Shown: in pieces, positions 1-52,881 of the stretch | Layout: every line of letters begins with the position of its first letter | How positions within the stretch are numbered: position 1 is the stretch's first letter | Made by a program: the position numbers and the translations under genes | The notes under the pieces: generated by a model | What the model saw: the letters and a program-made list of their open reading frames with translations, nothing else | Told to the model about the DNA's origin: nothing | Databases searched by the model: none | DNA from: a virus | Taxonomy: Duplodnaviria; Caudoviricetes | Reading direction: 5' to 3' (one strand) | Length of the DNA stretch: 53,592 bases | IMG/VR virus record: IMGVR_UViG_3300043420_001594 | Coordinates: 1 to 53,592 of that record

Positions 1-1
1 C

Positions 2-1676: not shown

Positions 1677-1702
1677 TTATCACCAGCTAATAAGAGGCGA
1701 AG

Positions 1703-4700
1703 ATGGCCTACAAGTATTTTGGACGACTGGCTGGTTCCACGCTGGCGACCGACGCGGTCACACTGACGTCCCCCGCCAACACCACCACGCCCTTCACGGC
1801 CGTGCTGCCGGCGTCCAAGTTCATCGCGTATGGGGAGAACGCCACCAGCGCGGCGTTCAATCGAGCTCTCACCGCCCTGTCCGTCAACACCGACGCGTTG
1901 GCAGGTGTGTTGGACTCTCCGGCACTCCGATATGAGGTACTGGAGCCGAGTCTTCAGGCCGGTAACCCCGGATACAGCTCTCTGGCGGGTGTGGCGGCGG
2001 GGGCTCAGAAGCTCGACTTGGGCGCAGGTGTGCACCGCCCCGTCACCTGGACGTACGTCGGACTGCACAAGGATCTGTTGCTCCGGCACATGCAGGTAGA
2101 GCGGATTGCCAGCCGATCGGATGGTCAACAACTGCTGGCTCCGTCCGACATCTACGTGAACGCCGCGGCTGCGGCGGTCTCGTCGTCCTACTTCCCCACC
2201 ACCTCCTACACCGGAACGTCCGACAACGCGTTGGCGCTCAAGATTCCGGGTGTCGTGGCGGTGGTGACGGATCTTCCTCCCTACGGTGGAGCCACCGCCC
2301 CCACAGCCGTCAGTTCGTTCGACTCGGACGGATGCCGGCTCACCAACAAGTCGTGGGAAGATCTGTACGCACGTCCCGGGTGTCTGGTGTCGATTACTGG
2401 CGCGACCAACAACCGCGGTCTCTACCGGATCGCCAGCCTGACGGGTGGGAACGGGAACGCCACCTCGAAGGCTGTGCTGACGCGCGCCTACACTGAGGTG
2501 ACGGTAGCGGACGGCACCATCTTCAACGTCGGGGACCTGGTGGGCTGGCGGCCCGAGCCGTCCGACCAGCAGAACGCGGGAACTCCCGCCGAGTACGTGA
2601 ACCGCGCCTATGTGGTGTTCAAGTTCTCGACCGGTAACAACAACCAAGCGGTCCTGTACCTAAGTGACTTGGGTGGCAGCGAGGACCTGAAGATCCAGGG
2701 AACGGCCGTCGCCCACAAGGTCAACCCCACCAGCACCGGCACCGTCTCTATCAGCCGGTATGGCTTGGTCGACCTGGAGTCCGGTGCGACCCAGAACGCG
2801 TCCTTCGTGATCGGCACGTATCTGCTGAATCTGGCCACGGTGGGGGCCAACCCCATCGCCAACCACAGCTCTACAATCAGCGCGATCCTACCGGCCAACC
2901 ACCCGGTTCGCTTCGACACCGTGGCGGCCGCCTACAACGCGACTGTGTGCGCGCCTCCCGGGTACGTCTTGAACCCGGTGATTGGGCTGAGCTCCAACTC
3001 ACTGGGCGGCGACCTCAAGGTCCACGCCCAGGTGCTCACGACGGCGGGGGAGAACTTGCGCTCAGGCGCCGGGACCGCCTCTAAGGGTTCGTTCGTACCC
3101 AGCACCCGGTTCGAGATGTCGCCGGGCTACCAGTCCCTAATGGAGGGGCTGTTCTCGTGGATCCACCGCGGAGACGATGGAGGTACGGGCGCGGGTCCGC
3201 AGGTCAGTCGATTTGCGTCGACCAGGCAGGTCTTGGGTGAGGGACTGTGGTACCTGACGTTCCAGCAGAACCTGCCCAGCATCCCGGCAGGGACGGCAAT
3301 TCAGATCGTCCCGCAACCAAATGAAACCGCCTACAACGCGACCGTGGTCCGGGTGTCTGGCACATCCTTGTGGATCAAGCACGTCTACTTGGATGGTAAG
3401 CAATACGGAAACGGCCACCCCGCCATCGCGGCGGGCGGAACGCTAACGTACGGGAACCCCGCCACCACCTACACCGTTGCGGCGGTGTGGGAGCCCCGGC
3501 TGGAAAGCACGCCGGGCCTGTACGTACCGGACGAGGGCTTGAACGCCCAGTACCACAACCACTACTCCGCCAACCCGGACATCCGCGGAAATCAGGGATC
3601 CGGTAACCGCATCAAGGCTTCGCTTAACCGTCCCCTCACGGTTGAGTTGCCGGCCAACGCAGGTCAGGCCGCATTCCAGGCAGAGAGCCCCCAGCAGGGC
3701 AACAACCAGGATTACGCGGTAATACGATCAGGCCCCGTCGGTGGACCGCCCAACACCATCGACATGGCGTTGGAGGTGGTGGACGGAACTACCTTGCGGA
3801 TCAAAGACGCGAACGCTACGGCGGGCGTAAGGTTCTCCGGGGCTGGTACCAACTTCGACGGGTCCAACAATGCGGCCCTGATGAATGGGGACTACGCCAG
3901 CAACATCCTCGGGGCGATCAATCAGGCCACCGGAAGTCTCAAGACGCATAGGCAACTGTTCACCAACGCACTCCTCCGCGGAGCGGGAGTGCAGGCGGGC
4001 GCAGGTCTGACGATTGACATTGGGGATGCGGAGTTTGTGGGCCTGGCGGGCCTGCATGTGGACGTGTCGGCGAAAACTGGATTTCCCGTGCCTGCCAACA
4101 GCACACTTCTGCTCCGGTGGACGGGTGTGTCGTATGAGGTGGTTGGTGGACTCGTCGAAGGTAGTGTTCCGATCGCTCGTATCACGACGAGTGTGGCGGC
4201 GGTAACGGAAATCCTGGATATGCGGTGGCTGGCCGGAAACATCGACCAGAAGCTGGACATCCGGGTCGGTGGATATGGTGCCCACTTCAGCACCGTCTCG
4301 GGTGCCATCGACTTCATCAACTACATCGACCAGTTCGGCCCCGATTACGTGGACAGAAAGTGGCGGATCCTGGTTTGCGGGGATGTGACGGAGCAGCGGT
4401 GGAACGTGAGATTTGAGGTGGACGGCGTCTGCATCGAGGGTCTCCCGGGCGTCACGATCACGTGGGATCCATCCCTTCAACCCGTCAACAAGAACTACGG
4501 ACTGTTTGACTTCGGGGGCCGCAGCGACCTGTCGTTCAAGAACCTGCACATCCGGTACACCCCTGGGGCGGGCGTCAACACCATCACGACGCCACCGGCC
4601 AGTCGGATGGTCTTCTTCAATAATTCTCCGACCCAGAACAACCGCCTCTTGTTCGATAACGTCAGGATTTCGAGTTCCGTGGCCAGCAAGTTGCACGGTT

Positions 4701-5464
4701 ATCTCCAACTCACTTCCGGCGTCAACGACCTGACGGTCCGCAACTGCTTGTGGGAAGGAGCGTCCGAAAGCGGTGTGTACCTGACCGGACAGGAAATTCG
4801 GCGGGTTAGGATTTCCGGAACCACCCTTAGGGGCAGCTACCCGCGGCAGTTGTCCGGAGGCTTGGGGGCCGGAATCCTCATAATCCCCTCCGCAGATGGA
4901 ACGGACATCTGGGTGACCGACTGTACGGTTGTGGAATGGTCGGACCGCGGCATCGACATCACCGCCACGTCCGCCAAGGTGGAGGGCTGCAACGTTGTGG
5001 AAATCCGGCACGGCGGCAACACCAGCCCCGTTCCTTTGGCGAAGGAAGCGCACGGTATCCGTATGACCGGCCTGGGCACTGATGTCGGGTTCCTTCGAGT
5101 CGGCGATTGCTTGGTTCAGGGGATCGGCACCGCCAACAAGGGCGGTCTGACCCGCGGTATCTCCGTTACGTCGGCAGTAGGATCGCAGGCAAACGCCCAC
5201 ATCAAGGACTGTCTCGTGGCGGACCTGCGGGCCGATGATGTGGCTGCCGAACGGTACGGGGTTTTCGCAGACGGTGTCGACGGCCTGATTATGGGCATCC
5301 GCTACTTCCCGCTTGCGGGTGGACCCACCGGAACGGAGGCGGGGGTCCGACTGCAGGCTACGGCCAACAGGTGGACGGTGGATGCTTGCCAGACCGGGGG
5401 TGCCGGTATCTCCAATGCCGGCGCCAGCACCTACATCGGCGCCATGAACCGGGACGACGCGTAA
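1703..5464 (+). CDS. Tail fibre / tailspike with C-terminal right-handed beta-helix (pectin-lyase-like)
   Basis: 1253 aa, Gly/Thr/Asn-rich. HFSTVSGAID is followed by repeating beta-helix-like strands (LSFKNLHI, LLFDNVRI, LTVRNCLW, IWVTDCTV, KVEGCNV, RVGDCLV). Confidence 0.7.
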   Translation: MAYKYFGRLAGSTLATDAVTLTSPANTTTPFTAVLPASKFIAYGENATSAAFNRALTALSVNTDALAGVLDSPALRYEVLEPSLQAGNPGYSSLAGVAAGAQKLDLGAGVHRPVTWTYVGLHKDLLLRHMQVERIASRSDGQQLLAPSDIYVNAAAAAVSSSYFPTTSYTGTSDNALALKIPGVVAVVTDLPPYGGATAPTAVSSFDSDGCRLTNKSWEDLYARPGCLVSITGATNNRGLYRIASLTGGNGNATSKAVLTRAYTEVTVADGTIFNVGDLVGWRPEPSDQQNAGTPAEYVNRAYVVFKFSTGNNNQAVLYLSDLGGSEDLKIQGTAVAHKVNPTSTGTVSISRYGLVDLESGATQNASFVIGTYLLNLATVGANPIANHSSTISAILPANHPVRFDTVAAAYNATVCAPPGYVLNPVIGLSSNSLGGDLKVHAQVLTTAGENLRSGAGTASKGSFVPSTRFEMSPGYQSLMEGLFSWIHRGDDGGTGAGPQVSRFASTRQVLGEGLWYLTFQQNLPSIPAGTAIQIVPQPNETAYNATVVRVSGTSLWIKHVYLDGKQYGNGHPAIAAGGTLTYGNPATTYTVAAVWEPRLESTPGLYVPDEGLNAQYHNHYSANPDIRGNQGSGNRIKASLNRPLTVELPANAGQAAFQAESPQQGNNQDYAVIRSGPVGGPPNTIDMALEVVDGTTLRIKDANATAGVRFSGAGTNFDGSNNAALMNGDYASNILGAINQATGSLKTHRQLFTNALLRGAGVQAGAGLTIDIGDAEFVGLAGLHVDVSAKTGFPVPANSTLLLRWTGVSYEVVGGLVEGSVPIARITTSVAAVTEILDMRWLAGNIDQKLDIRVGGYGAHFSTVSGAIDFINYIDQFGPDYVDRKWRILVCGDVTEQRWNVRFEVDGVCIEGLPGVTITWDPSLQPVNKNYGLFDFGGRSDLSFKNLHIRYTPGAGVNTITTPPASRMVFFNNSPTQNNRLLFDNVRISSSVASKLHGYLQLTSGVNDLTVRNCLWEGASESGVYLTGQEIRRVRISGTTLRGSYPRQLSGGLGAGILIIPSADGTDIWVTDCTVVEWSDRGIDITATSAKVEGCNVVEIRHGGNTSPVPLAKEAHGIRMTGLGTDVGFLRVGDCLVQGIGTANKGGLTRGISVTSAVGSQANAHIKDCLVADLRADDVAAERYGVFADGVDGLIMGIRYFPLAGGPTGTEAGVRLQATANRWTVDACQTGGAGISNAGASTYIGAMNRDDA

Positions 5465-5474
5465 GGAGCACAAG

Positions 5475-5961: not shown

Positions 5962-6474
5962 TTAGGCAGCCTGCTGACGAACCTTCCGGGCGCCCTTGTT
6001 CTTGGGCGCCAGGAGCTCCTCAACCATTTCGGGCGTGATCTCGGCGTTGGTGTTGGCGGCCTCGGCGGCGGGAGCCTCGGCGACCGGAGCCTCGGCGACC
6101 GGAGCCTCGGCGACCGGAGCCTCGGCGACCGGAGCCTCGGCGACCGGCGCCTTCAGCATCTCCACCAAGCCGTCGAGCTTGGTGTCGATGTTCTTCAGAC
6201 CTTCGGACGTCCGGGCGTCCAGGCTCTTCAACTCGGCGCTGAGTCGCACGACCTCCCGGTCCAGTCCCTCCAGCTCGTTGTCGAGCTTAGTCACACCTTC
6301 CTCCAGTTCCTTGGTCTTCTGGGCGATCTCCGTCAACTGGGCGTCCAGTCCCTCGGCCTTCTTCTCCAGATCCGCCGTCTCCTGCTTCCGGTCACGGTTC
6401 GCCACGTAGGCCTTGCGACCCACGTACGCCGTCACCACCACCGCAGCCACAGCACCAGCAATCTTACCCCACAT
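5962..6474 (-). CDS. Membrane-anchored coiled-coil protein with APVAE repeats
   Basis: N-terminal hydrophobic helix (IAGAVAAVVVTAYV), heptad coiled coil, APVAE repeats, AGGAG RBS; ends QQAA. Confidence 0.75.
   Translation of the reverse strand: MWGKIAGAVAAVVVTAYVGRKAYVANRDRKQETADLEKKAEGLDAQLTEIAQKTKELEEGVTKLDNELEGLDREVVRLSAELKSLDARTSEGLKNIDTKLDGLVEMLKAPVAEAPVAEAPVAEAPVAEAPVAEAPAAEAANTNAEITPEMVEELLAPKNKGARKVRQQAA
6061..6150. repeat. 15-bp tandem repeat x6 (CTCGGCGACCGGAGC) encoding APVAE
   Basis: Four exact units at 6076-6135 plus two variant flanking units. Confidence 0.95.
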
Positions 6475-6563
6475 GATGACTCCTGTATGGGAGGGGGATG
6501 TTGATAAATGGATATGTCCCTCCCTTCATCTTTCTTATCCCCAAATACGGGGCCGTTTTTGCA
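6475..6563 (-). promoter_or_regulatory. Repeated promoter + leader hairpin, copy 1
   Basis: About 90-nt block similar to 6910-6996. On the - strand: TGCAAA...GGGGATAAG, then a GGGAGGG/CCCTCCC leader stem, then the AGGAG RBS. Confidence 0.75.
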
Positions 6564-6630
6564 TTACTAGGTAAAGAAGAGGGCGCAGGTTTTATCCCGC
6601 GGCTCTTCCGATATGTTTTATGAACCAACC

Positions 6631-6999: not shown

Positions 7000-7452
7000 T
7001 TAGGGGATAAAAGTGCGTACCAGCTCCAGAAACCAGTCGTACGGTATTACTGCGTAATCCCCGCTGGCGGTCTTGTGGTGGGTGGGCGCGCAGACCAAAT
7101 CTCCGACCTGAAGGGTAAAGCCTGACTGACCAGTAGAGTCCTGGTGGCAGGTGAGGGGGCGGTCCAACACATCGATCGGTACGACCGCCAACTCTCCGTG
7201 CCCTTGAAACTCCACCACATAGGCTGGAGTTTTACCGATCCGGTAGGCCTGCTTCTTCAGGAAGTCGAGATCCCGGTCCTCAACACGATAACGTGGTTGA
7301 CCCGTCGTCTTGGCCTCCACCAACCACGCGTCACTTCGAACGTCCCGCCGGGCACCCCACCGGGCCCCGGAGGCAGGGGTTGTCCTGCCTCCGAGGTCCT
7401 GGGCGATGCGCCGCTCCTGTTTTACAGACAGCTGCTTGGACGTCTTCTTCAC
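7000..7452 (-). CDS. PD-(D/E)xK nuclease, Holliday-junction-resolvase-like
   Basis: E...TPASGA...DV...LVEAK motif. Likely start is GTG 7452, overlapping the upstream stop. Confidence 0.7.
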   Translation of the reverse strand: MKKTSKQLSVKQERRIAQDLGGRTTPASGARWGARRDVRSDAWLVEAKTTGQPRYRVEDRDLDFLKKQAYRIGKTPAYVVEFQGHGELAVVPIDVLDRPLTCHQDSTGQSGFTLQVGDLVCAPTHHKTASGDYAVIPYDWFLELVRTFIP

Positions 7453-7703
7453 GGTTCCACAAACGGCAGGGCTTGCTGCCTGCTGTTCTCTGCTGCCCGC
7501 GCTTGCACGAACAGGGCCACCTTTTGGACCCACGGGGAAACGGCGTCGCACAGGGCATCCATGTTGCTGGGGCTGTCAATCCACACGTCTGCGGCGGGTC
7601 TGAGATCGACGGCCTCCTGCTTGGTCGGCGCCACTACCTGCAGCACCATCTCGACGTTGCCGTGCCGGACTGTCATGAACGGTTCCTTTGCTGGCCTACC
7701 CAT
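7449..7703 (-). CDS. Hypothetical protein
   Basis: GGAGGTGGAG RBS before ATG 7703; coupled to both neighbours. Confidence 0.6.
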   Translation of the reverse strand: MGRPAKEPFMTVRHGNVEMVLQVVAPTKQEAVDLRPAADVWIDSPSNMDALCDAVSPWVQKVALFVQARAAENSRQQALPFVEP

Positions 7704-8679
7704 TCTCCACCTCCTTATTGATGTCGTCCCCATACATACTGGCATCCGGCAGGCTCTCCAGATTGGGGAACGTGTTGATCCCTATGTCGGCCCACGGACG
7801 GATCGTGTTGATCAGGTGCAGCACCGCCGTGGACAGGATCTGCATGTCCTGATCCAGCTTCTTGACGGTCCGCTCGACCGCATCGACCCGCGCCTTAGTG
7901 GAGTGGGTGGTGATGTCGCTGCGGATCTGCTGCACCTTACTGTCCAGCGAATTGGTCACCTGCTCCAACCGGTCACACATCTCGTTGATTCGGTTGTTCA
8001 TGTTACCGATGTTCTCGGTAATGGTGCCGGGGAGCTCGGGTGCCTGCGATGGCTTGGGAGTGCCCCGGCTCACCGGCATGAATGTCGGCTTCTTGGCGGG
8101 CGGCGGAAGCGTCACCACCCTCTTGACGGGCTTGGGTGGCTCAACCTTCACCTCCGCCACATCTACACTGACCTCCACCGGGGTCTTCACCGGTACGGCG
8201 ATGGTCTCGGTAACCTCCGGCTTGGTCGGGGCCTCGTCTTCAGCGACTTCCTCGTCGTCATCAGGCACGACCGGTTCATCCAGTTCTGAGAAATCGTGAT
8301 CCATCTGGTCCTCCTCTGTCTCCTGTGAGATCTCAATATCCCGCGGCGGCCATTCGGCCGGCGGGCCCTTGCCTTGTAGATTTGCCTGAATCTGCGCAAC
8401 GTACTGAAGGACGCCGGGTCTGAGGGCGGACTCGTTGCAGGCGGACAACTCCGCCGACGCGAACAGTTCCTGCCGCTCGATCACCCAATCGACCAACTCA
8501 TTGGCCATCAGACGGTACGCCCCATCATTTGGAGACAACCCCATCGCCTTGACCGCGATGTGGCGTACCTCAGCCTTGTCCAACACCGCCAGAGCCTTCT
8601 TGGACAGTTTCACTGGCTTGGGCGGTTTCGGAGCTTTCGGAGCTTTCGGAGCTTTCGGTTGCTTTGCTTTTGGCGGCAT
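7696..8679 (-). CDS. Hypothetical protein (Lys/Pro-rich N-terminus, acidic linker, C-terminal coiled coil)
   Basis: GAGGT RBS; KAP repeats; in operon. Confidence 0.7.
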   Translation of the reverse strand: MPPKAKQPKAPKAPKAPKPPKPVKLSKKALAVLDKAEVRHIAVKAMGLSPNDGAYRLMANELVDWVIERQELFASAELSACNESALRPGVLQYVAQIQANLQGKGPPAEWPPRDIEISQETEEDQMDHDFSELDEPVVPDDDEEVAEDEAPTKPEVTETIAVPVKTPVEVSVDVAEVKVEPPKPVKRVVTLPPPAKKPTFMPVSRGTPKPSQAPELPGTITENIGNMNNRINEMCDRLEQVTNSLDSKVQQIRSDITTHSTKARVDAVERTVKKLDQDMQILSTAVLHLINTIRPWADIGINTFPNLESLPDASMYGDDINKEVENG

Positions 8680-8950
8680 CAACACCTCTCACCATGTTGT
8701 GGCAGTTCAGGACCATCGCGTCTGTGTGTTGGTAACAGTCACCGTTGCACGGCAGGGACAGCCGATCACGGTTGTCCCGTATGAACGCGATGATTCGATC
8801 CCGCTTCTTATTGACTGGGTTGGCCGGTAGGTCTTGCGGCATTACTCGGTAATGAAGCAGGTCCTCCATCTGTTGGACCGTGACCTCCGGCGCCACCCTT
8901 ATACCCAATTGTTGCCAGACAACGTGCCTCAGTTCCGCGCGAGTCAGCAC
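8570..8950 (-). CDS. Hypothetical protein with Cys/His cluster (C-x3-C-x2-H...C)
   Basis: GGAGG RBS before GTG 8950; LPCNGDCYQH...CH. Confidence 0.6.
   Translation of the reverse strand: MLTRAELRHVVWQQLGIRVAPEVTVQQMEDLLHYRVMPQDLPANPVNKKRDRIIAFIRDNRDRLSLPCNGDCYQHTDAMVLNCHNMVRGVDAAKSKATESSESSESSETAQASETVQEGSGGVGQG
8626..8658. repeat. 9-bp tandem repeat (TTTCGGAGC x3.7) inside a gene overlap
   Basis: Reads as KAP repeats in 7696..8679 and as ESS repeats in 8570..8950. Confidence 0.9.
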
Positions 8951-9381
8951 AGTTCCTCCAGTCTGATGTCGATGCCTTCCCGCGCGTGGTCGGGTCCGTG
9001 ATACTTGTTTACCAGCACCGACACGAAACAACTGTCATCAATACCCGCCGTCTTCGAAATCAGGTCTTCGACGACCTTTACCAGGTTTGACGCGTCCCTC
9101 CTGCGGTACCGGTTCGGCGTACTCTTCGGAAAACCGCTGTTGTAGAGCGCGGGAAGAAACAGATCGAGAACGAGCCGGTGCGGTCGGTTCTGGTCCGGAG
9201 TCTGAAAGCTGAGCGGCAACTGCCGCAAGAGCTCGACTGATGCCTGCGCTAAGAATACTTTCATTTCCTTGGACTGGACCAGGCCGTTCCTGGTCTTGGT
9301 GTACATCTTGTTGGCGCTCGGGGGCAGGATCGTCAGGTTTGCCTGATACACCGTCCTCGTACCGCACTGTTCGTACTTCAC
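8944..9381 (-). CDS. rusA: RusA-like Holliday junction resolvase
   Basis: PPSANKMY N-terminal motif and RDASNLVKVVED...GIDDS pattern typical of the RusA family. AAGGAG RBS before GTG 9381. Confidence 0.75.
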   Translation of the reverse strand: MKYEQCGTRTVYQANLTILPPSANKMYTKTRNGLVQSKEMKVFLAQASVELLRQLPLSFQTPDQNRPHRLVLDLFLPALYNSGFPKSTPNRYRRRDASNLVKVVEDLISKTAGIDDSCFVSVLVNKYHGPDHAREGIDIRLEELC

Positions 9382-18388: not shown

Positions 18389-18422
18389 GCAACACCTCCA
18401 TAATTATTAGCCACTAATACCC

Positions 18423-33906: not shown

Positions 33907-33987
33907 GGTCCTGCTTCTCCGTACCAGGCCTAGCTGTTAGCATGTGCTAAGTTGACCGCGTGCTCGCGAACATTACGAGGTAATACG

Positions 33988-39968: not shown

Positions 39969-40451
39969 GTGCCGTTCACTAGTGAGAAGCAACGCCGCTT
40001 TATGTTTGCCGAGCACCCCCGTATCGCCAAGCGCTGGGCCCACGAGAACCCAGAAGGCGACGAGGGCCTCCCCACCTACGCGCATGGGAAGACCACATCC
40101 CCTGACCTCAAGAAGCGCTGGGAAAGGTTGAAGGCTCGTCGTAGTATCGGTAAGCCTCAGGAGGGTGAAGAAATGAAGTACAGTGACAAGGGGGTGGCCG
40201 CCCCATCCAAGGGCCAGAAGTACGCGAAGAAGAAGATGGCTGGCCTGTCGGACCTGATCAAGAAGGCGCAGCCTTCTGGCCCCGTCAATGTCCGCGAAGC
40301 CAGCAATCCCAAGATGAGCTGCATGACCTGCAAGTACTTCACTCCCCTGTCGGGCAACCGCGCGGGCCCAGGTATGTGTGGTGTGGGGTCGAGGCCCGTC
40401 CCCGTCAAAGGCACGGATGTCAGCGATTCGTATGAGTCGAAGGTGGTGTGA
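39969..40451 (+). CDS. Basic protein with C-terminal CxxC domain
   Basis: MPFTSEKQRRFMFA N-terminus; CMTC...C domain similar to 41322..41537. Confidence 0.65.
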   Translation: MPFTSEKQRRFMFAEHPRIAKRWAHENPEGDEGLPTYAHGKTTSPDLKKRWERLKARRSIGKPQEGEEMKYSDKGVAAPSKGQKYAKKKMAGLSDLIKKAQPSGPVNVREASNPKMSCMTCKYFTPLSGNRAGPGMCGVGSRPVPVKGTDVSDSYESKVV

Positions 40452-40452
40452 C

Positions 40453-41049
40453 ATGATGGGAAACAAGGAAAAGGCCAAGCTCTTGGCCCGTTTCGCCAAG
40501 GTTAAGGAGGCCGACGGTATGATGCCCGAGGCCGAAGATGAGGGCGAGATGGAGAACGGCAGCGTTGGCGGAGACCCCGCCGGGATGCTGTGCCAGGTTC
40601 TCGGTATGCTGTTGGCGATGCGGCAGAACTATCACTCCAGCCACTGGCAAGTCAGCGGTCCCAACTTCTATGGCGACCACCTGATGTTCAGCAAACTGTA
40701 CGAGTCTGTTAGTGACGACATCGATACTCTCGGAGAGAGGCTGGTGGCCAAGTATGGAGCCGACAAGGTTGACGGCGCCAAATTGAGCCAGACGCAGGCC
40801 CAGATTCTCATGGATCTGGCCCAACAGGCGGACCCGGTTCAGCGCGGTATCTCTTCAGAGAAGGCGTACCAGGCTCTGGTCAAGAGCGTGTACGAGGCCC
40901 TGAAGGAGATGGGTGCGCTCTCGCTCGGCTTGGACGACTTCCTGATGGCGTCAGCCAACACGCACGAGACCAATGAGTACCTACTTGGTCAACGTGCCGG
41001 CGGTACTGGCGGCGGTGTCTCGATCACAATGCTGCGAAAGGCCATGTAG
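40453..41049 (+). CDS. dps: Dps/ferritin-like protein
   Basis: HSSHWQVSGPNFYGDHLMFSKLY...DIDTLGER matches the Dps ferroxidase signature (H, H, D, E). Confidence 0.8.
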   Translation: MMGNKEKAKLLARFAKVKEADGMMPEAEDEGEMENGSVGGDPAGMLCQVLGMLLAMRQNYHSSHWQVSGPNFYGDHLMFSKLYESVSDDIDTLGERLVAKYGADKVDGAKLSQTQAQILMDLAQQADPVQRGISSEKAYQALVKSVYEALKEMGALSLGLDDFLMASANTHETNEYLLGQRAGGTGGGVSITMLRKAM

Positions 41050-41537: not shown

Positions 41538-41740
41538 ACCGTCACGGTCCACTTCTGCACCTGCACCCGGGCACCCGGGATCATGTGTCGGACCAGCTGT
41601 TTGACCGACTCCTTTTCCGCGTGGGCGAGCGGCCACCTGATGTGTAGGATCAGGGTATCGCCTTGCTCCTCGTAACGATCCAGTGTATTGCCGAGGGCGC
41701 GGGACAGCATCGCCACGACCCCGGAGAAACGCGTGTTCAA
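41528..41740 (-). CDS. Possible small antisense gene
   Basis: Protein-like 70-aa ORF filling the gap before the terminase; overlaps its uncertain start. Confidence 0.3.
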   Translation of the reverse strand: MNTRFSGVVAMLSRALGNTLDRYEEQGDTLILHIRWPLAHAEKESVKQLVRHMIPGARVQVQKWTVTVQS

Positions 41741-43406: not shown

Positions 43407-43488
43407 CCCATTACTCGGTAATGTCTGGACGAGCTTTCAACTTCGGACGGGCCGGTGCTACCATGCTGTAGGTTGCGAGAGGTTTACC

Positions 43489-46015: not shown

Positions 46016-47608
46016 ATGCTGAAACTGATCACACTGCCGGGCGTCAGCGATACCGGGGACATCTTGATTCAGGCGATCTTTCCGGGAGCTCCGCTTGTCA
46101 AAACGGCTTCCGCGGCCCTCCATCCGGAGATTCAAAAGTACCTGGGCGACCTGAAGTCGAAACCTGAGAAACTGTACGTGCTGGTCAACGCGCTGGGCGC
46201 GGGGGAGTGGTACGGCAGCAACATCAACGGCGACTACTTCGAGGAACGGGAACTCAACACACCGCAGGGTTCTGAGTTCGGGTTTCGCACGTTCTTGGAC
46301 TCAGGCGTCTACCGACACCACGTCAACAAGGACATTAAGAAATCGTTCGGCAAGGTGATGGTGTCGGTCTACAACCCCATCATGCACCGAGTCGAGCTGG
46401 TCATTGAGATTGACCGGGCTAAGGCTGCGCAAGAGGGCCACGGGGATCTGGTTGACCAACTGGACGCCGGCAAGAACCCGGCTGTCTCGATGGGCTGCCG
46501 GGTGGCGTTCGACGTCTGCAGTATCTGCGGAAACAAGAGCAAGACCCGCAACGATTACTGTCTGCATGCCAAGACAATGATGAATCAGGTCCTACCCGAC
46601 GGTAGAAAAGTGTATGTTCTGAACCCCAACCCCAAGTTCTTCGACATCTCCTTCGTGCTGATCGGGGCGGACCGCACCAGCTACGCAATGGCAAAGGTGG
46701 CGTCGGTGTACGGCGTATCACCGGGTAATATGTTGTCGGCGGACTTGGCGGAAGAGTACGGTTTGCGGGATCGCTCATCCGTCACCATGCTGGCGGAAAA
46801 GCTGGCCAACAAGCAGAAACTCTCCAATATGGTCAAGAACCTGCCCGCCATTTCGGCCAAGGTGATGCCCGGCATCACCGGACAGGAACCCAACCTACCT
46901 GCTGAACTGTTGGATCGGCTGGCCCAAAAGCCTCTCCCCTCCGTCACCACTACGCTGTCAGCCTCAGGGATCGTCTTGAAGCCTGCCGAATACCAGCGTA
47001 TCGTTCTGATGAAGATGGGGCAGGCCGACAAGGCCGCTCGTCTCGCGAAACTTGGGTCGGTGTTCCGCCCCAACGGGCATGCCGATCACTCGATCCGGTA
47101 CCTAGACGCTCGGCACTACGACGTGGACGTTCGGGATATGGCGATCCCCTACTTGGAGAAGAGGTCCGCCTTCGATCCCGTTCTCAGTCGTAGACTTCAG
47201 AAGGCCTCGGCATCCTCGCGCACGCATGAGCAGTTTGCAGATGACGAGTTGCTCGATAAGATCGCATCTGGGTACAACGGTTACCGGGAGCAGATGTTGG
47301 AGAACATCAGTACCCTGGTGGCCACAACAACGGGCAGGGATCCAACCCTGCTCACGGCGCTGTCTGGCGCAGACCTCGAAGGGATGTTCTTGGGCAACGG
47401 TCTGGCAAAATCAGCGGAGGTGAGCCCCCCGCAGGCCCTGCTAGGCGCGGTACCATGGGCATACCTTTACGGAGCCTTCGGTGGAGGTTCTGGGGAGGGT
47501 ACTGACAAGGCAGAGTCGTTCGTCGCTAAGCACCCGCTGTTGGCGGCGTCCATTTTGGCTGGCCTCGGGAAACTGAGTGCTGGCCTGGTGAAGGCAAAGT
47601 TGGTTTAG
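46016..47608 (+). CDS. Prohead (maturation) protease, HK97/assemblin-like, with Zn finger
   Basis: SNINGDYF...YRHH...FGKV...VELV...AVSMGC.V..DVCSICGN...CLH...FFDISFV..GAD; upstream of scaffold candidates and MCP. Confidence 0.7.
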   Translation: MLKLITLPGVSDTGDILIQAIFPGAPLVKTASAALHPEIQKYLGDLKSKPEKLYVLVNALGAGEWYGSNINGDYFEERELNTPQGSEFGFRTFLDSGVYRHHVNKDIKKSFGKVMVSVYNPIMHRVELVIEIDRAKAAQEGHGDLVDQLDAGKNPAVSMGCRVAFDVCSICGNKSKTRNDYCLHAKTMMNQVLPDGRKVYVLNPNPKFFDISFVLIGADRTSYAMAKVASVYGVSPGNMLSADLAEEYGLRDRSSVTMLAEKLANKQKLSNMVKNLPAISAKVMPGITGQEPNLPAELLDRLAQKPLPSVTTTLSASGIVLKPAEYQRIVLMKMGQADKAARLAKLGSVFRPNGHADHSIRYLDARHYDVDVRDMAIPYLEKRSAFDPVLSRRLQKASASSRTHEQFADDELLDKIASGYNGYREQMLENISTLVATTTGRDPTLLTALSGADLEGMFLGNGLAKSAEVSPPQALLGAVPWAYLYGAFGGGSGEGTDKAESFVAKHPLLAASILAGLGKLSAGLVKAKLV

Positions 47609-48293: not shown

Positions 48294-48400
48294 GCTCAAC
48301 CCATCACCTGGTAATAAACTGGTGCGGTGGGTTGGGCGGACGATAGCCTCGGTCGCGGCCCACCAGGTAGTCGCTGAGACTGGGTGGTGGGCCGCGACCG
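48294..48400 (+). promoter_or_regulatory. Tandem stem-loops in intergenic region
   Basis: Stem 1 GCTCAACCCATC/GGTGGGTTGGGC with G-U pairs. Stem 2 is a perfect 16 bp (48350-48365/48385-48400) just before the AGGAGAGG RBS. Confidence 0.65.
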
Positions 48401-48419
48401 GACGGCAGGAGAGGTCGGG

Positions 48420-49100
48420 ATGTCATCGAGTAAACTGATCCAAAGCCTGATGGGCGCCAAGCCGGTCACCAAGACCGCGTCGGCTGAGCCCGGTCTGACG
48501 GACCCGGTCTACGTTGAGAAGTTGGCTTCCGCCGTCGACTTCATCCACGACCACTACGAGACCTTGGACATGGCCAAGGTGGCGGCGGCCAAGAGCGTCC
48601 CTGCTGCGGAAAAGATGCCGGCTAAGGAGATGGAGGTCACAAAGGCCATCACGGCTCCACCGGTTGACGACAAGATGGCCGACAAGGTCCGCGCATCTCT
48701 GGCGGAGAGCCTGAAGAATCGGCTCAAGAAGAAGGAGGCTGAGGCCTCCGTACAAGACGACGCAGTTGTCCAGTCAGTGCTGGGCAAGCTGTTGCGGATG
48801 CGTGCTGAGGTAGAGGCTCCGGCCGAAGAAAAGGCCGAGAAAGCCCCCGAGCAGCAGTCGCAAACTGAACCTGACTCCCCTGTGGAGGAGGAGACTGAGG
48901 TCAAGGCCGCCAGTTTGGCAGACTTGTCCTTGGCGGACGTACTGGAAGGTGCGCTCCGGGCCAACGAACTTGAGGAGGGCGTCTCCAGGGAACGCTCGAA
49001 GACTGCAAGTGTTCGTGGCGAAAAAGGGCCAACGGCCCGCAAAGCGGCTGTCCAGACCCTGAAGCAGGGCTTGATGGCCAAGTTCGGTAAGGAGGCGTAA
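48420..49100 (+). CDS. Scaffold/core-like protein with K-x-A motifs
   Basis: RBS before ATG 48420; TKTASA, EKLAS, AKVAA, VKAAS, SKTAS. Confidence 0.65.
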   Translation: MSSSKLIQSLMGAKPVTKTASAEPGLTDPVYVEKLASAVDFIHDHYETLDMAKVAAAKSVPAAEKMPAKEMEVTKAITAPPVDDKMADKVRASLAESLKNRLKKKEAEASVQDDAVVQSVLGKLLRMRAEVEAPAEEKAEKAPEQQSQTEPDSPVEEETEVKAASLADLSLADVLEGALRANELEEGVSRERSKTASVRGEKGPTARKAAVQTLKQGLMAKFGKEA

Positions 49101-49104
49101 ACAC

Positions 49105-49452
49105 ATGGAACGGTTGGATGAAAACTCCGTCCGTCAAGTCCTCTCCCAGGTGGGTCCGGTTCTCCGGGCACTCGTGGAAGAGAACGTGAAGCTAGCGAGT
49201 GCTTTGAAGGAAGCGCAGCGCGCCGAACAGGCGGAAGAGATCGTGACCATGATGGATGCTCGTGGTCTCAGCGATAGGTCGGTTCCTTTTAAGCAGAAGG
49301 TGGCAGCTTTGCTATCTTCTAAGAAGGACCTCGGCGTCGTCAAAGAGGCTCTGGCAATCGTCACCCCCGACATGTCCTTTGCTTCGTTGTCGGATGTTCC
49401 GGACAACGATGCCACCGACACGCTCGAGGGCTACCTGCTCTCGGGGCAGTAA
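49105..49452 (+). CDS. Head-module helical protein
   Basis: AAGGAGG RBS; VKLAS. Confidence 0.65.
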   Translation: MERLDENSVRQVLSQVGPVLRALVEENVKLASALKEAQRAEQAEEIVTMMDARGLSDRSVPFKQKVAALLSSKKDLGVVKEALAIVTPDMSFASLSDVPDNDATDTLEGYLLSGQ

Positions 49453-49474
49453 TCAGTAACTTCGGAGGTTCAAA

Positions 49475-50074
49475 ATGGCAGCTAAGACGATTAGTGCGAC
49501 TCGTCGCCGCAACGTCACGCCCACCTCGTCGATCCTTCGGATCGTGACGCGGGATGTGGACTGCAGCGCGTTTCCTGTAGCACCTGAGGATGGTCAGTTT
49601 GTAATCACCGCGGGCGACACCGCGGGCACCGGGTTCAGCGACTGGGCTAATGGTACGCCCTACGTGTTTTCGGATGCGACTGCGAACAACGTGACCGCTG
49701 AAGACGCGATTGGCTCAAGCATCAAGATGGTGTGGTCGTCTGCTCTGCAGACCGACCGCCAGGCTCTCGGCAACACCAAGGTGCCGGTGCTCTTCTTGGG
49801 CGGCGTGGAAGTGGAGTGCCAACTCCTCAATGCTGACGACAGCCTCGCGCTCAACCACGCCAACTACTACCCGGCCGGCACGTTGGTGACGGTCAAGAAG
49901 GCGTCGTCGTCTGTGCAGGGGACTGCTAACCGTCTGGTCATCAACCCGCTGGCGTCTGGCCACTATGGTTGGGCCGTTGGCTACGTGACCAAGACCACCA
50001 GCGACACGGCGGCGGACGGTAAGTCCGTCACCATCATGCTGTACGATCAGCCCCGCAAGGTCGGCAACTTCTAA
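49475..50074 (+). CDS. Probable capsid decoration/minor head protein
   Basis: GGAGG RBS; beta-rich; immediately upstream of the MCP. Function inferred from position. Confidence 0.55.
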   Translation: MAAKTISATRRRNVTPTSSILRIVTRDVDCSAFPVAPEDGQFVITAGDTAGTGFSDWANGTPYVFSDATANNVTAEDAIGSSIKMVWSSALQTDRQALGNTKVPVLFLGGVEVECQLLNADDSLALNHANYYPAGTLVTVKKASSSVQGTANRLVINPLASGHYGWAVGYVTKTTSDTAADGKSVTIMLYDQPRKVGNF

Positions 50075-50092
50075 TCCTAAGGAGGACACACA

Positions 50093-51301
50093 ATGAACCA
50101 GAATGTACCAGGAGAGGTCCTCAACGAGCTATTCTTGACGAAGCTCGACACTGAGGCCGGCAAAGAGAAGATCGCTCAGCTGGGCTCGGACTACATCCGT
50201 GACCGTCTCCGTGAGGAGTCGTTCTCGGCCAAGGTCCTGGCCAAGCGTCAGGTCTCGCGTTCGGAGCTGCAGGTCAGCGTCAACCACGACTACTTGGTCA
50301 AGATCGTTGAGATCGAGCCCCAGAGCCGTGCGATGTCGATGAGCTTCCGCGGTCAGCCGAGCGTCAAGTACTACACTGGCGATCGCTTTGAGTGCGCGTT
50401 CCACACCGTTGGTTCGCTGCGCTACGAGCAGACGGAACAGGAGCTGATGGCGTACTCGATGCCCATCACGCAGATCATCCGTCAAAACATCGTCAACGAC
50501 ATCGCTGAGGTTGAGGACCGCGTGTTCCTCGGCCACATCGAGTCGGCGTGCCAGGCGCTGCAGAAGGATGCCAACAGCATCGCTCTGACCGCGGCGTTCG
50601 CGGATGCCACGGCCTTCACGGCCCGCAACGTCGCCAAGACCTCTGGTGGCGTCAAGGAAGTGGGCAAGGCCAAGGGCATCGACGCCATCGCCAACACCGC
50701 TGCCGCCAGCGATGCTGCGGGTCTGTCGGAGAACCTGATCTTCCCCGTCCAGAAGGACGACATGATCAAGTTGTTCCAGCTCTTTACGGGCACGGGCAAC
50801 CGTGGTTCGCGTCTGCGCTGCGATCAGTTCCTCATCACCGACACCGACTTCGAGGACATCAACTCGTGGGCGCTGGCGGACATGGGCGACAAGATCGTGG
50901 GCGAGACCAGCGTCGACGGTTACAAGTACTCGACGGTGATCGGCCGCAAGTTCATCCGTACCCTGAAGACGGACATCCTCCGTCCCGGCAACATCTACGC
51001 CTTCGCGGCGCCGGAGTTCCTGGGCGGCTTCATGGTGCTGAACAAGCTGCAGTTCTACGCTGACAAGGAGCGCAACCGCGTTTCGTTCGAGGCGTGGGAG
51101 GACATCGGCATGTACATCGGCAATATCGCTGGTTGCCGCAAGCTGGAGCTGTACGCGGGTGCGGTTGAGGTGGCGGCCACCAATACCGCGACCGAGTCGG
51201 CTTACCGCGCCAAGTACCTGCCGGTGGCTGAGGATCAGCTGGGCAAGAAGAACAACCTCGTCGCCGAGGGTGGCACCTTCCCGAATATCCAGCAGTTCTA
51301 A
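50093..51301 (+). CDS. Major capsid protein (HK97 fold)
   Basis: AAGGAGG RBS, strongly biased codons, 402 aa. Follows the protease-scaffold-decoration order; DIAEVEDRVFL helix and WEDIGMYIGN C-terminal strand. Confidence 0.75.
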   Translation: MNQNVPGEVLNELFLTKLDTEAGKEKIAQLGSDYIRDRLREESFSAKVLAKRQVSRSELQVSVNHDYLVKIVEIEPQSRAMSMSFRGQPSVKYYTGDRFECAFHTVGSLRYEQTEQELMAYSMPITQIIRQNIVNDIAEVEDRVFLGHIESACQALQKDANSIALTAAFADATAFTARNVAKTSGGVKEVGKAKGIDAIANTAAASDAAGLSENLIFPVQKDDMIKLFQLFTGTGNRGSRLRCDQFLITDTDFEDINSWALADMGDKIVGETSVDGYKYSTVIGRKFIRTLKTDILRPGNIYAFAAPEFLGGFMVLNKLQFYADKERNRVSFEAWEDIGMYIGNIAGCRKLELYAGAVEVAATNTATESAYRAKYLPVAEDQLGKKNNLVAEGGTFPNIQQF

Positions 51302-52450: not shown

Positions 52451-52452
52451 CG

Positions 52453-52857
52453 ATGCCGCAGATTCCTTACAAGGACACCCAGACTCTGGTCGTCCCTTTG
52501 GCCAACCCCAACGTGATTGTGTCGCTACCGATCCCGGACAGCCAACACTACCTCGGCTTCGCTATTCAGATCATCGACGCCAAGTGTGACGTCGGCAATC
52601 CTGCGGTCGATGGCGGATTTCGGGTTGAGGCGAACCTGGGCGGAGTAGACAGCAACGGAGATCCCGCGTGGGCTGTCGTCTACTCGGCGGACTTCTACGC
52701 TCCCCAAGATCCCCACTTTCATCAGGGTGAGGTCATCACCTTTAGCCTTCGCGCCCCTGCTAAGAATGGGATCAGAGTCGTCTCGAAGAGCGCCGTCACA
52801 GCAGGCGGCAAGGTCATGGTCTCCATGTACGAGCGTGCTTACCCGCCGCAGGTTTAA
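52453..52857 (+). CDS. Hypothetical beta-rich virion protein
   Basis: GAGGT RBS; in operon. Confidence 0.6.
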   Translation: MPQIPYKDTQTLVVPLANPNVIVSLPIPDSQHYLGFAIQIIDAKCDVGNPAVDGGFRVEANLGGVDSNGDPAWAVVYSADFYAPQDPHFHQGEVITFSLRAPAKNGIRVVSKSAVTAGGKVMVSMYERAYPPQV

Positions 52858-52881
52858 TATTATCAAGTAATGGGGCAGCGG

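What the first reader, a model, noticed from the sequence alone, without database searches (positions are those of the whole stretch)
1679..52871. AT-rich 13-bp palindromic site repeated roughly every 2-3 kb across the window
Seen: ATYAB-N3-VTAAT (e.g. ATTACGCGGTAAT 3711, ATTACTCGGTAAT 8841 and 43410, ATTAGCCACTAAT 18406, ATTATCGGATAAT 36215) occurs at 18 strict and 3 near sites. Twelve strict sites lie inside coding regions (fibre, polymerase, RNAP, SNF2, terminase, protease). A rough hand estimate at about 60% GC predicts fewer than one by chance. Spacing is fairly even, e.g. 21355, 23554, 26806, 29382, 31750, 33972, 36215, 38074. Inference: this is the site for a dimeric DNA-binding protein acting genome-wide (organisation, protection, packaging or stepwise ejection) rather than a simple operator. 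The XRE HTH at 21562 is one candidate binder.
Basis: partly seen in the sequence, partly recalled or inferred. Interest (0 to 1): 0.85.

Follow-up and report, generated by a model that had tools for sequence, protein, structure and literature searches.

The report
Evenly spaced palindrome across jumbo phage
A short AT-rich palindrome is written about every 3 kb into this GC-rich phage fragment, often by rare synonymous codons inside genes, and most likely marks where a phage DNA-binding protein sits along the whole genome.

Summary
ATYA-N5-TRAT occurs 18 times in 53.6 kb. Dinucleotide shuffles give 0.66 and codon-preserving shuffles give 0.86. Spacing is more even than random (CV 0.41; P=0.0014 even if each gene may hold only one site).

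The window is about 30% of an uncultured jumbo phage with a fused beta-beta' RNA polymerase. Relatives carry the same kind of motif at a similar density. Site positions mostly differ between relatives. In W vs a relative 18.5% diverged, 0 of 32 core bases changed. At 42314 four synonymous codon choices create the site.

Sites lie near gene starts only in one relative, G001. In W the trend is weak, and in G003, G005 and G006 it is absent. This argues against a plain promoter.

Best reading (about 0.5): a genome-wide binding or loading site for a dimeric phage protein. The leading candidate is a ParB-family protein. Near-complete relatives encode it, always with a motif 100-141 nt upstream of its gene. 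It is not in the window. G001's consensus shares 11 bp with the KorB operator.

The XRE and AT-hook candidates are not supported.

The parts
1679..1691 (.). site ATCACCAGCTAAT, intergenic between ORF 1017..1676 and fibre-like ORF 1703..5464; 11 nt before the ATG
3711..3723 (.). site ATTACGCGGTAAT inside ORF 1703..5464 (1253 aa, beta-helix), 2008 nt from its start
6563..6575 (.). possible near site ATTACTAGGTAAA (one mismatch), intergenic; on the - strand it directly abuts a GCAAAAAC-N-GGGGATAAGAA-ATG promoter-like element
   Evidence: near sites show no excess as a class
7046..7058 (.). site ATTACTGCGTAAT inside the 3' part of resolvase-like ORF 7000..7551 (-); about 49 nt upstream of a second TGCAAAAAC-N-ATAAGAA-ATG element
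8841..8853 (.). site ATTACTCGGTAAT inside ORF 8570..9031 (-), an ORF with homologs in three relatives
14137..14149 (.). site ATTAGCGCGTAAT inside DNA polymerase A gene 12799..14736 (-); G001 has a site at the aligned position
18406..18418 (.). site ATTAGCCACTAAT, intergenic, 17 nt upstream of the DnaB-like helicase start (18388, - strand), downstream of a terminator-like hairpin at 18452-18471
21355..21367 (.). site ATTACCAAGTGAT inside helicase gene 20163..21587 (-)
23554..23566 (.). site ATCACCGTGTAAT inside ORF 23093..23758 (+); G005 has a site at the aligned position
26806..26818 (.). site ATCATCGGCTAAT inside the fused beta-beta' RNAP gene 26045..32311, 761 nt in; kept in L012 and at the aligned position in G001
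29382..29394 (.). possible near site ATGACGCGGTAAT (one mismatch) inside the RNAP gene; all 13 bases identical in L012
31750..31762 (.). site ATCAGTCGGTAAT inside the RNAP gene, 5705 nt in; kept in L012 only
33972..33984 (.). site ATTACGAGGTAAT, 3 nt before ATG 33988; its spacer holds the GAGG ribosome-binding site; kept in L012
36215..36227 (.). site ATTATCGGATAAT inside ORF 35952..36749; core kept and spacer changed in L012
38074..38086 (.). site ATTATTCGATAAT inside SNF2 ATPase gene 37922..39721; uses the rare codons TTA, GAT and AAT
42314..42326 (.). site ATCACTCGATAAT inside terminase large-subunit gene 41688..43406; the peptide KSLDNTI is the same in G001, G003 and G005, but only the window uses AAA TCA .. 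GAT AAT
43410..43422 (.). site ATTACTCGGTAAT, intergenic, 3 nt after the terminase stop and 66 nt before ORF 43489
46717..46729 (.). site ATCACCGGGTAAT inside the protease-like gene 46016..47608
48303..48315 (.). site ATCACCTGGTAAT, intergenic, upstream of the block 48384..51301 that ends in the major head gene; G003 (15925) and G001 (76631) have intergenic sites in the same neighbourhood
52859..52871 (.). site ATTATCAAGTAAT, intergenic, 1 nt after the stop of 52453..52857

Best explanation
The 13-15 bp element tATYAB-N3-VTAATa is the recognition or loading site of a phage-encoded, sequence-specific protein that binds duplex DNA as a dimer and acts along the whole genome. Selection keeps one site roughly every 3 kb. 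Where no intergenic gap is available, the site is written into genes through rare synonymous codons. The most likely binder (about 0.3 overall) is a ParB/KorB/Noc-type protein encoded outside this 30% fragment. It is expected about 15-17 kb beyond the right end of the window. Inferred model: the protein loads at each site and spreads or slides over the neighbouring kilobases. The entire phage chromosome is then coated, silenced or organised, and the protein also regulates its own gene. Shown here: the motif, its enrichment, even spacing, purifying selection, positional turnover, lineage distribution, and its link to the ParB-like gene in relatives. Inferred: binding itself, the identity of the binder in this phage, and spreading.
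For: Enrichment: 18 sites vs 0.66-0.86 expected. Only the 5-bp spacer is enriched. One-mismatch sites show no excess.

Spacing: more even than random in W (P=0.0014 under a one-per-gene null) and in G001 (CV 0.52, P<5e-5).

Selection at the DNA level: 0 of 32 core bases changed between W and L012. Background divergence is 18.5%, and 33.7% at RNAP third codon positions. At 42314 the peptide is identical in three relatives, but only W uses AAA/TCA/GAT/AAT.

Density is conserved and place is not. G001 has 35 sites vs 1.24 expected, G003 24 vs 2.06, G005 15 vs 1.56. G006 has 55 vs 16.6 with a 4-bp spacer. Of 12 intragenic W sites tested, only 3 have a site at the aligned position in any relative at 58-65% identity.

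Dyad symmetry: 28 of 35 G001 sites are TATTAG-N3-CTAATA.

Placement is blind to gene starts in G003, G005 and G006.

ParB link:
- A ParB_N plus HTH_ParB protein is found in 4 of 4 near-complete motif-bearing records (G001, G006, G009, G010). It is found in 0 of 2 motif-less relatives (G007, G008).
- A motif lies 101-141 nt upstream of that gene's start in G001/L082, G009, L084 and L083, and as a gap-6 variant in G006. Its type follows each lineage's own motif.
- Only 1 of 50 other G001/G006 ortholog pairs shares an upstream site, against 0.8 expected.
- 19 of 35 G001 sites are ATTAGCSGCTAAT. The inner 11 bp equal the KorB operator TTTAGCSGCTAAA.
- RK2 has 12 such operators in about 60 kb, lying 4-10 bp to more than 1 kb from promoters.
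- In W and G001 the motif sits 0-49 nt upstream of a promoter-like element at 2 of 2 and 5 of 10 copies.
Against: No protein-DNA binding was tested.

No ParB_N, HTH_ParB or homolog of the relatives' ParB-like protein is in the window. For this phage the binder is therefore extrapolated.

The KorB DNA-binding domain (PF08535) is absent from all 5 records searched. The ParB-like proteins resemble Spo0J and Noc, not KorB.

No W site has the TTAGCnGCTAA core.

In G001 the ParB-like gene is flanked by 5 copies of a different palindrome, TGACCACAAnnTTGTGGTCA. That is a more conventional parS or operator candidate.

Many other genes share the phyletic pattern of present in the motif clade and absent in G007/G008, for example the SNF2 ATPase. 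The genomes sampled amount to only about two or three independent lineages.

W shows a polarity that a symmetric dimer does not predict. All 8 ATCA half-sites lie on the gene-upstream side and no TGAT lies on the downstream side. Five of the eight could simply reflect avoidance of the rare TTA codon in the favoured frame.

In G001 the sites do lie close to gene starts (median 126 vs 596 nt), which is promoter-like.

RK2 operators keep their positions between relatives. These sites do not.
Confidence: 0.5

Rival explanations
1. The motif is the promoter (or initiator) of the phage's own fused beta-beta' RNA polymerase. Transcription would start at the conserved A just after TAAT. Intragenic copies would be internal promoters that keep transcription going along long operons.
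For: The phage encodes a multisubunit RNAP, and no sigma-70 region 2 was found. Known RNAP-encoding jumbo phages have AT-rich, roughly 10-nt early promoter motifs (PMC7598289, passages read). Intergenic sites are enriched: 6 of 18 in about 4-5% of the sequence. Several sit between stop or terminator and ribosome-binding site. In G001, 11 of 35 sites have a gene start within 60 nt (2.4 expected), six of them at 12-14 nt. The W polarity is 8:0, with the strict TAAT-A on the downstream side. No other strongly over-represented motif was found in W.
Against: Sites lie no nearer to gene starts than random positions in G003, G005 and G006. In W the difference is not significant. Positions within genes look uniform and are not conserved between relatives. 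The element is a near-perfect 15-17 bp palindrome in G001. The spacer changes from 5 to 4 bp between lineages. G007 and G008 have the RNAP at 41% identity but 0 and 3 sites, and no analogous motif. Most larger intergenic gaps in W lack the motif, including the divergent junction 21966-22056. At 33972 and at G003 56907 the ribosome-binding site lies inside the motif. A separate bipartite promoter-like element exists: GCAAAA-N-GG[CT]ATAAGA, then ATG.
Confidence: 0.2
2. The motif is the target of a phage-encoded enzyme that marks the DNA. Candidates are a site-specific nickase (localized single-strand interruptions, as in T5-type or tf-type phages; recalled, not checked in a paper) or a methyltransferase or base-modifying enzyme.
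For: An interrupted palindrome with a 5-bp spacer is the usual architecture of type II recognition sites (my own knowledge). The sites are genome-wide, ignore gene boundaries and are sharply defined.
Against: No nuclease or methyltransferase gene with a matching distribution was identified. The only hint is a weak phrog methyltransferase hit (E 0.00096) for ORF 5962..6474. The available public runs are contigs only, so nicks, read starts and modification cannot be seen. Enrichment with even spacing is not what restriction-type sites usually show.
Confidence: 0.1
3. The motif serves replication or recombination as a site needed at regular intervals. It could be a priming or helicase-loading site, or a Chi-like signal for the phage's recombination-dependent replication.
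For: The roughly 3 kb spacing is of the order of Okazaki fragments (my own knowledge). The phage encodes primase, DnaB-like helicase, a UvsX-like recombinase, a Cas4-like exonuclease and resolvases. The polarity follows gene direction, and here GC skew changes sign at the same boundary near 22 kb.
Against: Known priming and Chi signals are short and asymmetric, not 13-17 bp palindromes (my own knowledge). Outside W the polarity is not significant (11:6, P=0.33). No direct evidence was obtained.
Confidence: 0.07
4. The palindrome acts as a DNA or RNA hairpin, for example an N4-type hairpin promoter or an RNA processing or terminator signal.
For: The element has 5-bp arms and a 3-nt centre. Positions 5 and 9 are complementary in 12 of 18 sites (permutation P=0.045). 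T-to-C changes at position 3 would keep a G-T pair on the template strand.
Against: In 8 of 18 W sites position 3 (C) cannot pair with position 11 (A) on the sense strand, and 4 of 18 sites mismatch at positions 5/9. In G005, by my reading, only 3 of 15 sites pair at 5/9. Positions 6/8 pair in 5 of 18 sites (P=0.99). The arms are almost all A-T, and no T-run follows.
Confidence: 0.03

Closest known systems
KorB operators (OB) of IncP plasmid RK2 and the KorB ParB-family CTP sliding clamp
   Same: Both are 13-bp palindromes with a single central base pair. Both are dispersed at about one per 3-5 kb (12 OB in about 60 kb) and lie next to promoters, far from them, or inside operons. In relative G001, 19 of 35 sites share the inner 11 bp TTAGCSGCTAA with OB. 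Near-complete relatives encode a ParB-family protein with a motif upstream of its own gene.
   Different: The window's own sites (ATTAC-N3-GTAAT) share only TTA...TAA with OB. No KorB DNA-binding domain is found, and no ParB-like gene lies in the window. Site positions turn over, whereas OB positions are conserved in R751. The host element is a 175-185 kb phage, not a plasmid. There are about 3-5 times more sites per genome, most of them in coding sequence.
Noc-NBS, SlmA-SBS and MatP-matS: chromosome-wide palindromic sites for organising proteins
   Same: These are short palindromes scattered over a whole replicon, in and between genes, and read by a dimer. Noc is a ParB-family protein, and structures of it are among the PDB matches of the phage protein (7ol9, E 4.7e-4).
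   Different: The site sequences are recalled, not checked here. The cellular sites are far sparser (recalled). Even spacing is not a known feature of them. No membrane-targeting or division-related function can be inferred for the phage.
Stoperators of Cluster A mycobacteriophages (L5, Bxb1); recalled, no paper read
   Same: These are 13-bp sites repeated about every 2 kb through a phage genome and oriented with transcription. One phage protein binds them to act genome-wide rather than at one operator.
   Different: Stoperators are asymmetric, lie almost only in short intergenic gaps, and are bound by the immunity repressor. Here the site is a palindrome, 12 of 18 copies are inside genes, polarity is weak, and no repressor is identified.
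[quoted passage not shown]
   Same: Both are AT-rich, sharply conserved motifs of about 10 nt in phages with their own multisubunit RNAP (PMC7598289).
   Different: Those motifs lie upstream of early operons, centred near -10. Here sites ignore gene starts in 3 of 5 genomes, are palindromic, and occur in all gene classes.

Membership tests
KorB/OB global regulatory system (IncP plasmids) | Operator TTTAGC(G/C)GCTAAA | tested here: not met
   There are 0 true OB sites in W and in G001. W has 0 sites with the core TTAGCnGCTAA. G001 has 19 of 35 sites with the inner 11 bp but A/T swapped at the ends (OB sequence).
KorB/OB global regulatory system (IncP plasmids) | KorB DNA-binding domain (Pfam PF08535) | tested here: not met
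   No match at E<=1 in 5 of 5 records: G000, G001, G003, G005, G006.
ParB-CTPase family with parS-type loading sites | ParB N-terminal (CTP-binding) domain plus ParB HTH in one protein encoded by the element | tested here: inconclusive
   Not in the window, which is only about 30% of the genome. Present in G006, G009 and G010, with ParB_N above the Pfam cut-off and GYRRYQA and ENMQR boxes aligned to Spo0J GERRYRA and ENLQR. Present in diverged form in G001, with GFQR and ENLAR boxes.
ParB-CTPase family with parS-type loading sites | The protein binds the palindromic site and closes or slides with CTP | not testable with these tools
   There is only indirect support: co-occurrence in 4 of 4 vs 0 of 2 records, and a motif 101-141 nt upstream of the gene in every lineage seen.
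ParABS partition system | ParA ATPase partner next to parB and a parS cluster beside the operon | tested here: not met
   The neighbours of the ParB-like gene have no ParA-type domain; one is an AAA+ ATPase. The cluster beside the G001 gene is a different palindrome.
Phage RNAP promoter | Lies upstream of, and oriented toward, the genes it serves | tested here: not met
   Gene start within 60 nt downstream: W 3 of 18 (1.1 expected), G001 11 of 35 (2.4), G003 1 of 24 (1.6), G005 1 of 15 (0.7), G006 3 of 55 (3.4). Distance to the next start differs from random only in G001.
Phage RNAP promoter | Transcripts start at the motif | not testable with these tools
   Only assembled contigs of public runs were available, with no read ends.
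Hairpin or cruciform element (N4-type promoter or terminator) | Arms stay complementary through compensatory change | tested here: not met
   Eight of 18 sites have C3 opposite A11. Positions 5/9 pair in 12 of 18 (P=0.045) and positions 6/8 in 5 of 18.
Stoperator-type genome-wide repressor sites | Asymmetric site, one orientation relative to transcription, intergenic | tested here: inconclusive
   Polarity is 8:0 in W, 11:6 elsewhere, 19:6 in all (P=0.015). But the site is a palindrome and 12 of 18 copies are in coding sequence.

The most novel reading that the evidence does not exclude
A lineage of jumbo phages encodes a ParB/KorB/Noc-type clamp. It gives the clamp about 50-60 loading sites, one every 3-4 kb over the entire 175-185 kb genome, many built into essential genes by synonymous codon choice. 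The whole viral chromosome is thereby coated, condensed or marked as 'self' by one protein. That would be a virus-encoded chromatin or genome-identity system, with half-site and spacer co-evolving with the protein between lineages.
Probability: 0.22. Interest if true: 0.85.

Novelty: new variant of a known kind. Interest (0 to 1): 0.68.

Why it matters
If the reading is right, a virus keeps a spacing rule for a protein-binding site strongly enough to override codon preference in its polymerase, terminase, helicase and RNAP genes. The rule persists while individual sites come and go. That would extend the KorB/Noc type of 'whole-replicon' DNA reader from plasmids and chromosomes to large lytic-type phages. 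It would offer a tractable model for how sliding or spreading proteins set site density. It would also give a sequence signature for binning fragments of this uncultured phage group. Even if the sites turn out to be promoters, they would define the recognition element of a previously unstudied fused beta-beta' phage RNA polymerase.

Tried and rejected
1. DNA search of 7.9 kb of the window against GenBank phages found no match. A protein search with the RNAP found only distant cultured relatives at about 31% identity, for example Vibrio phage D69. D69 has 0 strict TATTA-N5-TAATA sites.

2. XRE HTH and AT-hook protein as binders: rejected on phyletic grounds. The Dps-like protein 40378..41049 also has no homolog in relatives.

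3. Sigma factor: no Sigma70_r2 in G000, G001, G006 or G008. G010 has one sub-threshold hit.

4. Terminator-then-motif arrangement: 5 upstream vs 2 downstream cases in W plus G001, and none in G003, G005 or G006. This is too few to weigh.

5. Other over-represented words in W (CAGGCTCT, TCTGCATG) lie scattered in coding sequence without common flanks.

6. Public reads: all runs that hold the phage are kept as contigs. RNA-labelled runs gave only short, low-depth pieces, and no starts, ends or nicks can be read. Only 40 of 183 listed strain differences were shown, and none of those fell in a motif. Parts without cover mean nothing.

7. AlphaFold2 of the G001 ParB-like protein with a 4-row alignment gave mean pLDDT 42.6. 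It was not used, and no fold search was made on it.

8. More ParB-like loci were sought in viral and metagenome contigs. Only 6 loci came back each time, all from the two known lineages, and none from the window's lineage.

9. Literature: searches for a described genome-wide palindrome in phages, for ParB with jumbo phage (no listed paper holds 'jumbo phage') and for Salmonella phage Arash (0 papers) found nothing on this motif. This covers only those searches of the held library. The KorB papers' supplementary tables were not seen, and no claim here depends on them.

Papers, and what I saw of each: PMC11790492, passages and the Main section. PMC13768133, passages. PMC7598289, passages. PMC7824862, passages. 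T5/tf nicks, stoperators, the NBS, SBS and matS sequences, N4 hairpin promoters and restriction-site architecture are recalled, not read.

Full report
**What the window is**

The window is a whole IMG/VR virus record of 53,592 bp with an estimated completeness of 30%. It is 60% G+C.

Genes run rightward in 1-5891, leftward in 5962-21966 and rightward from 22056. Identified genes:
- DNA polymerase A, two helicases, an XRE HTH, an SNF2 ATPase and a terminase large subunit.
- One 2088-residue protein with bacterial-type RNAP beta domains followed by beta' domains.
- Primase, DnaB-like helicase, a UvsX-like recombinase, a Cas4-like exonuclease and resolvases.
- Portal-like, protease-like and major-head-like proteins.

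The RNAP has relatives at 41-93% identity on 21 IMG/VR loci. Several lie on contigs of 143-185 kb, three of them with terminal repeats. The window is therefore a fragment of an uncultured jumbo phage from aquatic samples. Each genome has a single RNAP copy.

**The observation**

All 18 strict sites are real.
- Chance gives 0.66 in dinucleotide shuffles. It gives 0.86 (maximum 3 in 200) when every protein sequence and each gene's codon usage are kept.
- Only a 5-bp spacer between ATYA and TRAT is enriched: 18 hits, against 0-4 for the other 15 spacers.
- Of 41 TAAT words in the window, 17 lie in these sites.
- One-mismatch sites are not enriched: 22 against about 21.5 expected. The element is all-or-none.
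- Twelve sites are in coding sequence and six are intergenic.
- Spacing is regular: CV 0.41, minimum gap 1096, maximum gap 5296. Fewer than 1 in 20,000 uniform placements reach that CV. A null allowing at most one site per gene or gap reaches it with P=0.0014.

**Selection acts on the DNA**

Relative L012 has 93% RNAP identity. It differs from the window at 18.5% of aligned bases and 33.7% of RNAP third codon positions. The four shared strict sites show 0 changes in 32 core bases, while spacers and flanks do change. The near site 29382 is identical in L012.

At 42314 the peptide KSLDNTI is the same in G001, G003 and G005. Only the window spells it AAA TCA CTC GAT AAT, where the relatives use AAG, TCG/AGC/AGT, GAC and AAC. 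At 38074 the site uses the rare TTA codon. Eight of the 11 intragenic sites framed share the frame xxA TYA nnn nnT AAT Axx. The frame that would put TAA in phase is absent.

**The motif is a trait of the clade, and its places are not**

Counts of ATYA-N5-TRAT against controls:

| Record | Size | Sites | Control (reversed pattern) | Codon-shuffle mean |
|---|---|---|---|---|
| G001 | 143 kb | 35 | 0 | 1.24 |
| G002 | – | 15 | 0 | – |
| G003 | – | 24 | 2 | 2.06 |
| G005 | – | 15 | 2 | 1.56 |

In G001 the motif is nearly a perfect palindrome. 28 of 35 sites are TATTAG-N3-CTAATA and 19 of 35 are ATTAGCSGCTAAT. Its spacing is also regular (CV 0.52).

The lower-GC lineage (G006, G009, G010) uses a 4-bp spacer instead. 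G006 has 55 ATYA-N4-TRAT against 16.6 expected and 25 ATTA-N4-TAAT against 3.9. For the strict TATTA-N4-TAATA, G009 has 18, G010 has 10 and G006 has 7, against 0 in the controls.

The two relatives at 41% RNAP identity have 0 (G007, 146 kb) and 3 (G008, 185 kb) 5-bp-spacer sites. They show no comparable palindrome.

Twelve intragenic W sites were mapped onto aligned positions. Relatives at 58-65% identity have a site at only three of them: 14137 and 26806 in G001, and 23554 in G005. Among 50 G001/G006 ortholog pairs, one shares an upstream site, against 0.8 expected. In L012, two sites lie in a segment of about 6 kb that the window lacks.

**Is it a promoter?**

This was my first guess, since the phage has its own RNAP and no sigma was found.

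In favour:
- Intergenic sites are enriched.
- Some sites sit between a stop codon or terminator-like hairpin and the ribosome-binding site.
- In G001, 11 of 35 sites have a gene start within 60 nt, against 2.4 expected.

Against:
- In G003, G005 and G006 the sites are no closer to gene starts than random positions. In W the difference is not significant.
- Positions inside genes are spread from 0.08 to 0.91 of gene length.
- The element is a palindrome, and the spacer length changes between lineages.
- G007 and G008 keep the RNAP without the motif.
- Most larger intergenic gaps of W lack it.
- At 33972 the ribosome-binding site lies inside it.
- A different, clearly directional element precedes small genes: GCAAAA(A)C, about 19 nt, GG[CT]ATAAGA, then ATG. 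It occurs twice in W, ten times in G001 and about a dozen times in G006.
- The palindrome, or in W once the near site 6563, lies 0-49 nt upstream of that element in 2 of 2 W copies and 5 of 10 G001 copies. That is where an operator would sit.

**Polarity**

I oriented sites by gene direction. In W all eight ATCA half-sites are then on the upstream side, and TGAT is never on the downstream side. The two words are about equally common in the sense strand overall: P(C|ATYA)=0.90 and P(G|TRAT)=0.85.
- W alone gives P=0.008.
- The other genomes give 11:6 (P=0.33).
- All together give 19:6 (P=0.015).

Five of the eight W cases replace the very rare TTA by TCA in the favoured frame. Codon cost may therefore explain much of the polarity. 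I leave it as a partly unexplained feature that a symmetric dimer does not predict.

**Who binds?**

The XRE HTH has no detectable homolog in G001 or G003. The AT-hook protein has none in any of the six relatives compared.

A better lead came from the G001 consensus. Its inner 11 bp equal those of the KorB operator TTTAGC(G/C)GCTAAA. RK2 carries twelve such operators in about 60 kb, from a few bp to more than 1 kb from promoters. KorB is a ParB-family CTP clamp that loads there and slides.

G006, G009 and G010 encode a 304-residue protein with ParB_N above the Pfam cut-off and a ParB HTH. Its GYRRYQA and ENMQR boxes align to Spo0J. Spo0J, other ParB proteins and Noc are its best solved relatives. 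G001 has a diverged homolog with a lysine-rich tail.

All four near-complete motif-bearing records have this protein. G008 (99% complete) and G007 (78%) have neither the protein nor the motif.

In every lineage seen, a motif of that lineage's own type lies upstream of the gene's start:

| Record | Distance upstream of start |
|---|---|
| G001 and L082 | 106 nt |
| G009 | 106 nt |
| L084 | 126 nt |
| L083 | 141 nt |
| G006 (6-bp-spacer variant) | 101 nt |

This is the one strongly conserved site position I found, as expected for autoregulation.

Cautions:
- The window has no such gene. By synteny it would lie 15.8-16.3 kb past the right end.
- The KorB-specific domain is absent.
- W's own sites do not resemble OB beyond TTA...TAA.
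- In G001 five copies of another palindrome flank the gene and could be its true target.
- Many genes share the same phyletic pattern.
- Only two or three independent lineages were sampled.

**Verdict**

The finding is real and not ordinary. It is a sharply defined palindromic site kept at an even density of about 3 kb by selection that overrides codon preference. It is conserved as a rule rather than as positions across a clade of jumbo phages.

My weights for the readings:
- Genome-wide binding or loading site for a dimeric phage protein: 0.5. Within that, about 0.3 overall for a ParB/KorB/Noc-type protein encoded outside the window.
- Promoter of the phage RNAP: 0.2.
- Enzyme mark (nick or modification): 0.1.
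- Replication or recombination signal: 0.07.
- Hairpin: 0.03.

The rest is unassigned. Nothing here shows binding. The decisive experiments are listed separately.

Noticed in passing
window 26045-32311: A single 2088-residue ORF joins bacterial-type RNAP beta domains (Rpb2_6, E 1e-52) to beta' domains (Rpb1_2, Rpb1_5). There is one copy per genome in all relatives, with no sigma-70 region 2 found. Cultured relatives such as Vibrio phage D69 match at about 31% and have the region annotated as several hypothetical proteins.
   Followed up: partly
window 6538 and 6971 (- strand); G001 105-29916 and 128186; G006 mainly 131-168 kb: A directional bipartite element lies in front of small, partly paralogous genes: GCAAAA(A)C, about 19 nt, GG[CT]ATAAGA(ACT), then ATG. 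It occurs 2 times in W, 10 in G001 and about 12 in G006. It looks like an early-promoter class with a TATAAG-like -10. In G001 the intervening stretch forms a hairpin with compensatory changes (CAAAAC/GTTTTG, CAGAAC/GTTCTG).
   Followed up: partly
L050/L071 (G001 54127-55493): Five copies of the 20-bp palindrome TGACCACAAnnTTGTGGTCA flank the gene upstream of the ParB-like gene and the ParB-like gene itself. It is found nowhere else in G001 or in the other genomes held. It is a classical operator or parS-like cluster.
   Followed up: partly
window 25648-26045: This 396-bp non-coding gap before the RNAP gene is the most variable stretch between the window and a 99%-like strain in run X3 (many substitutions and two small insertions at 25627-26020). 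It holds a TATAAGAA-tg-ATG element pointing away from the RNAP gene. G003 and G005 have the same arrangement.
   Followed up: no
window 1-20000: No sigma-70-type promoter-like site was found, where shuffles give 4.4 (sd 2.4).
   Followed up: no
window 40378-41049: A ferritin/Dps-like protein (Pfam Ferritin E 1.3e-6; phrog 'DNA binding protein') has no homolog in the six relatives compared.
   Followed up: no
window 19526-20179: A uracil-DNA-glycosylase-superfamily protein (E 3.6e-5, at the Pfam cut-off) is conserved in the motif-bearing relatives and not found in G007 or G008. The SNF2 ATPase 37922..39721 has the same distribution.
   Followed up: no
L012 8274-14234: The closest relative has about 6 kb between the RNAP-downstream genes and the homolog of ORF 33988..35955 that does not align to the window, where that interval is 0.8 kb. 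This extra segment carries two motif sites.
   Followed up: no
G007 and G008 (whole records): The motif-less relatives over-represent 8-bp palindromes such as CGAGCTCG (88 vs 28.9 expected in G007) and GCTCGAGC (38 vs 12.2 in G008). The cause was not examined.
   Followed up: no
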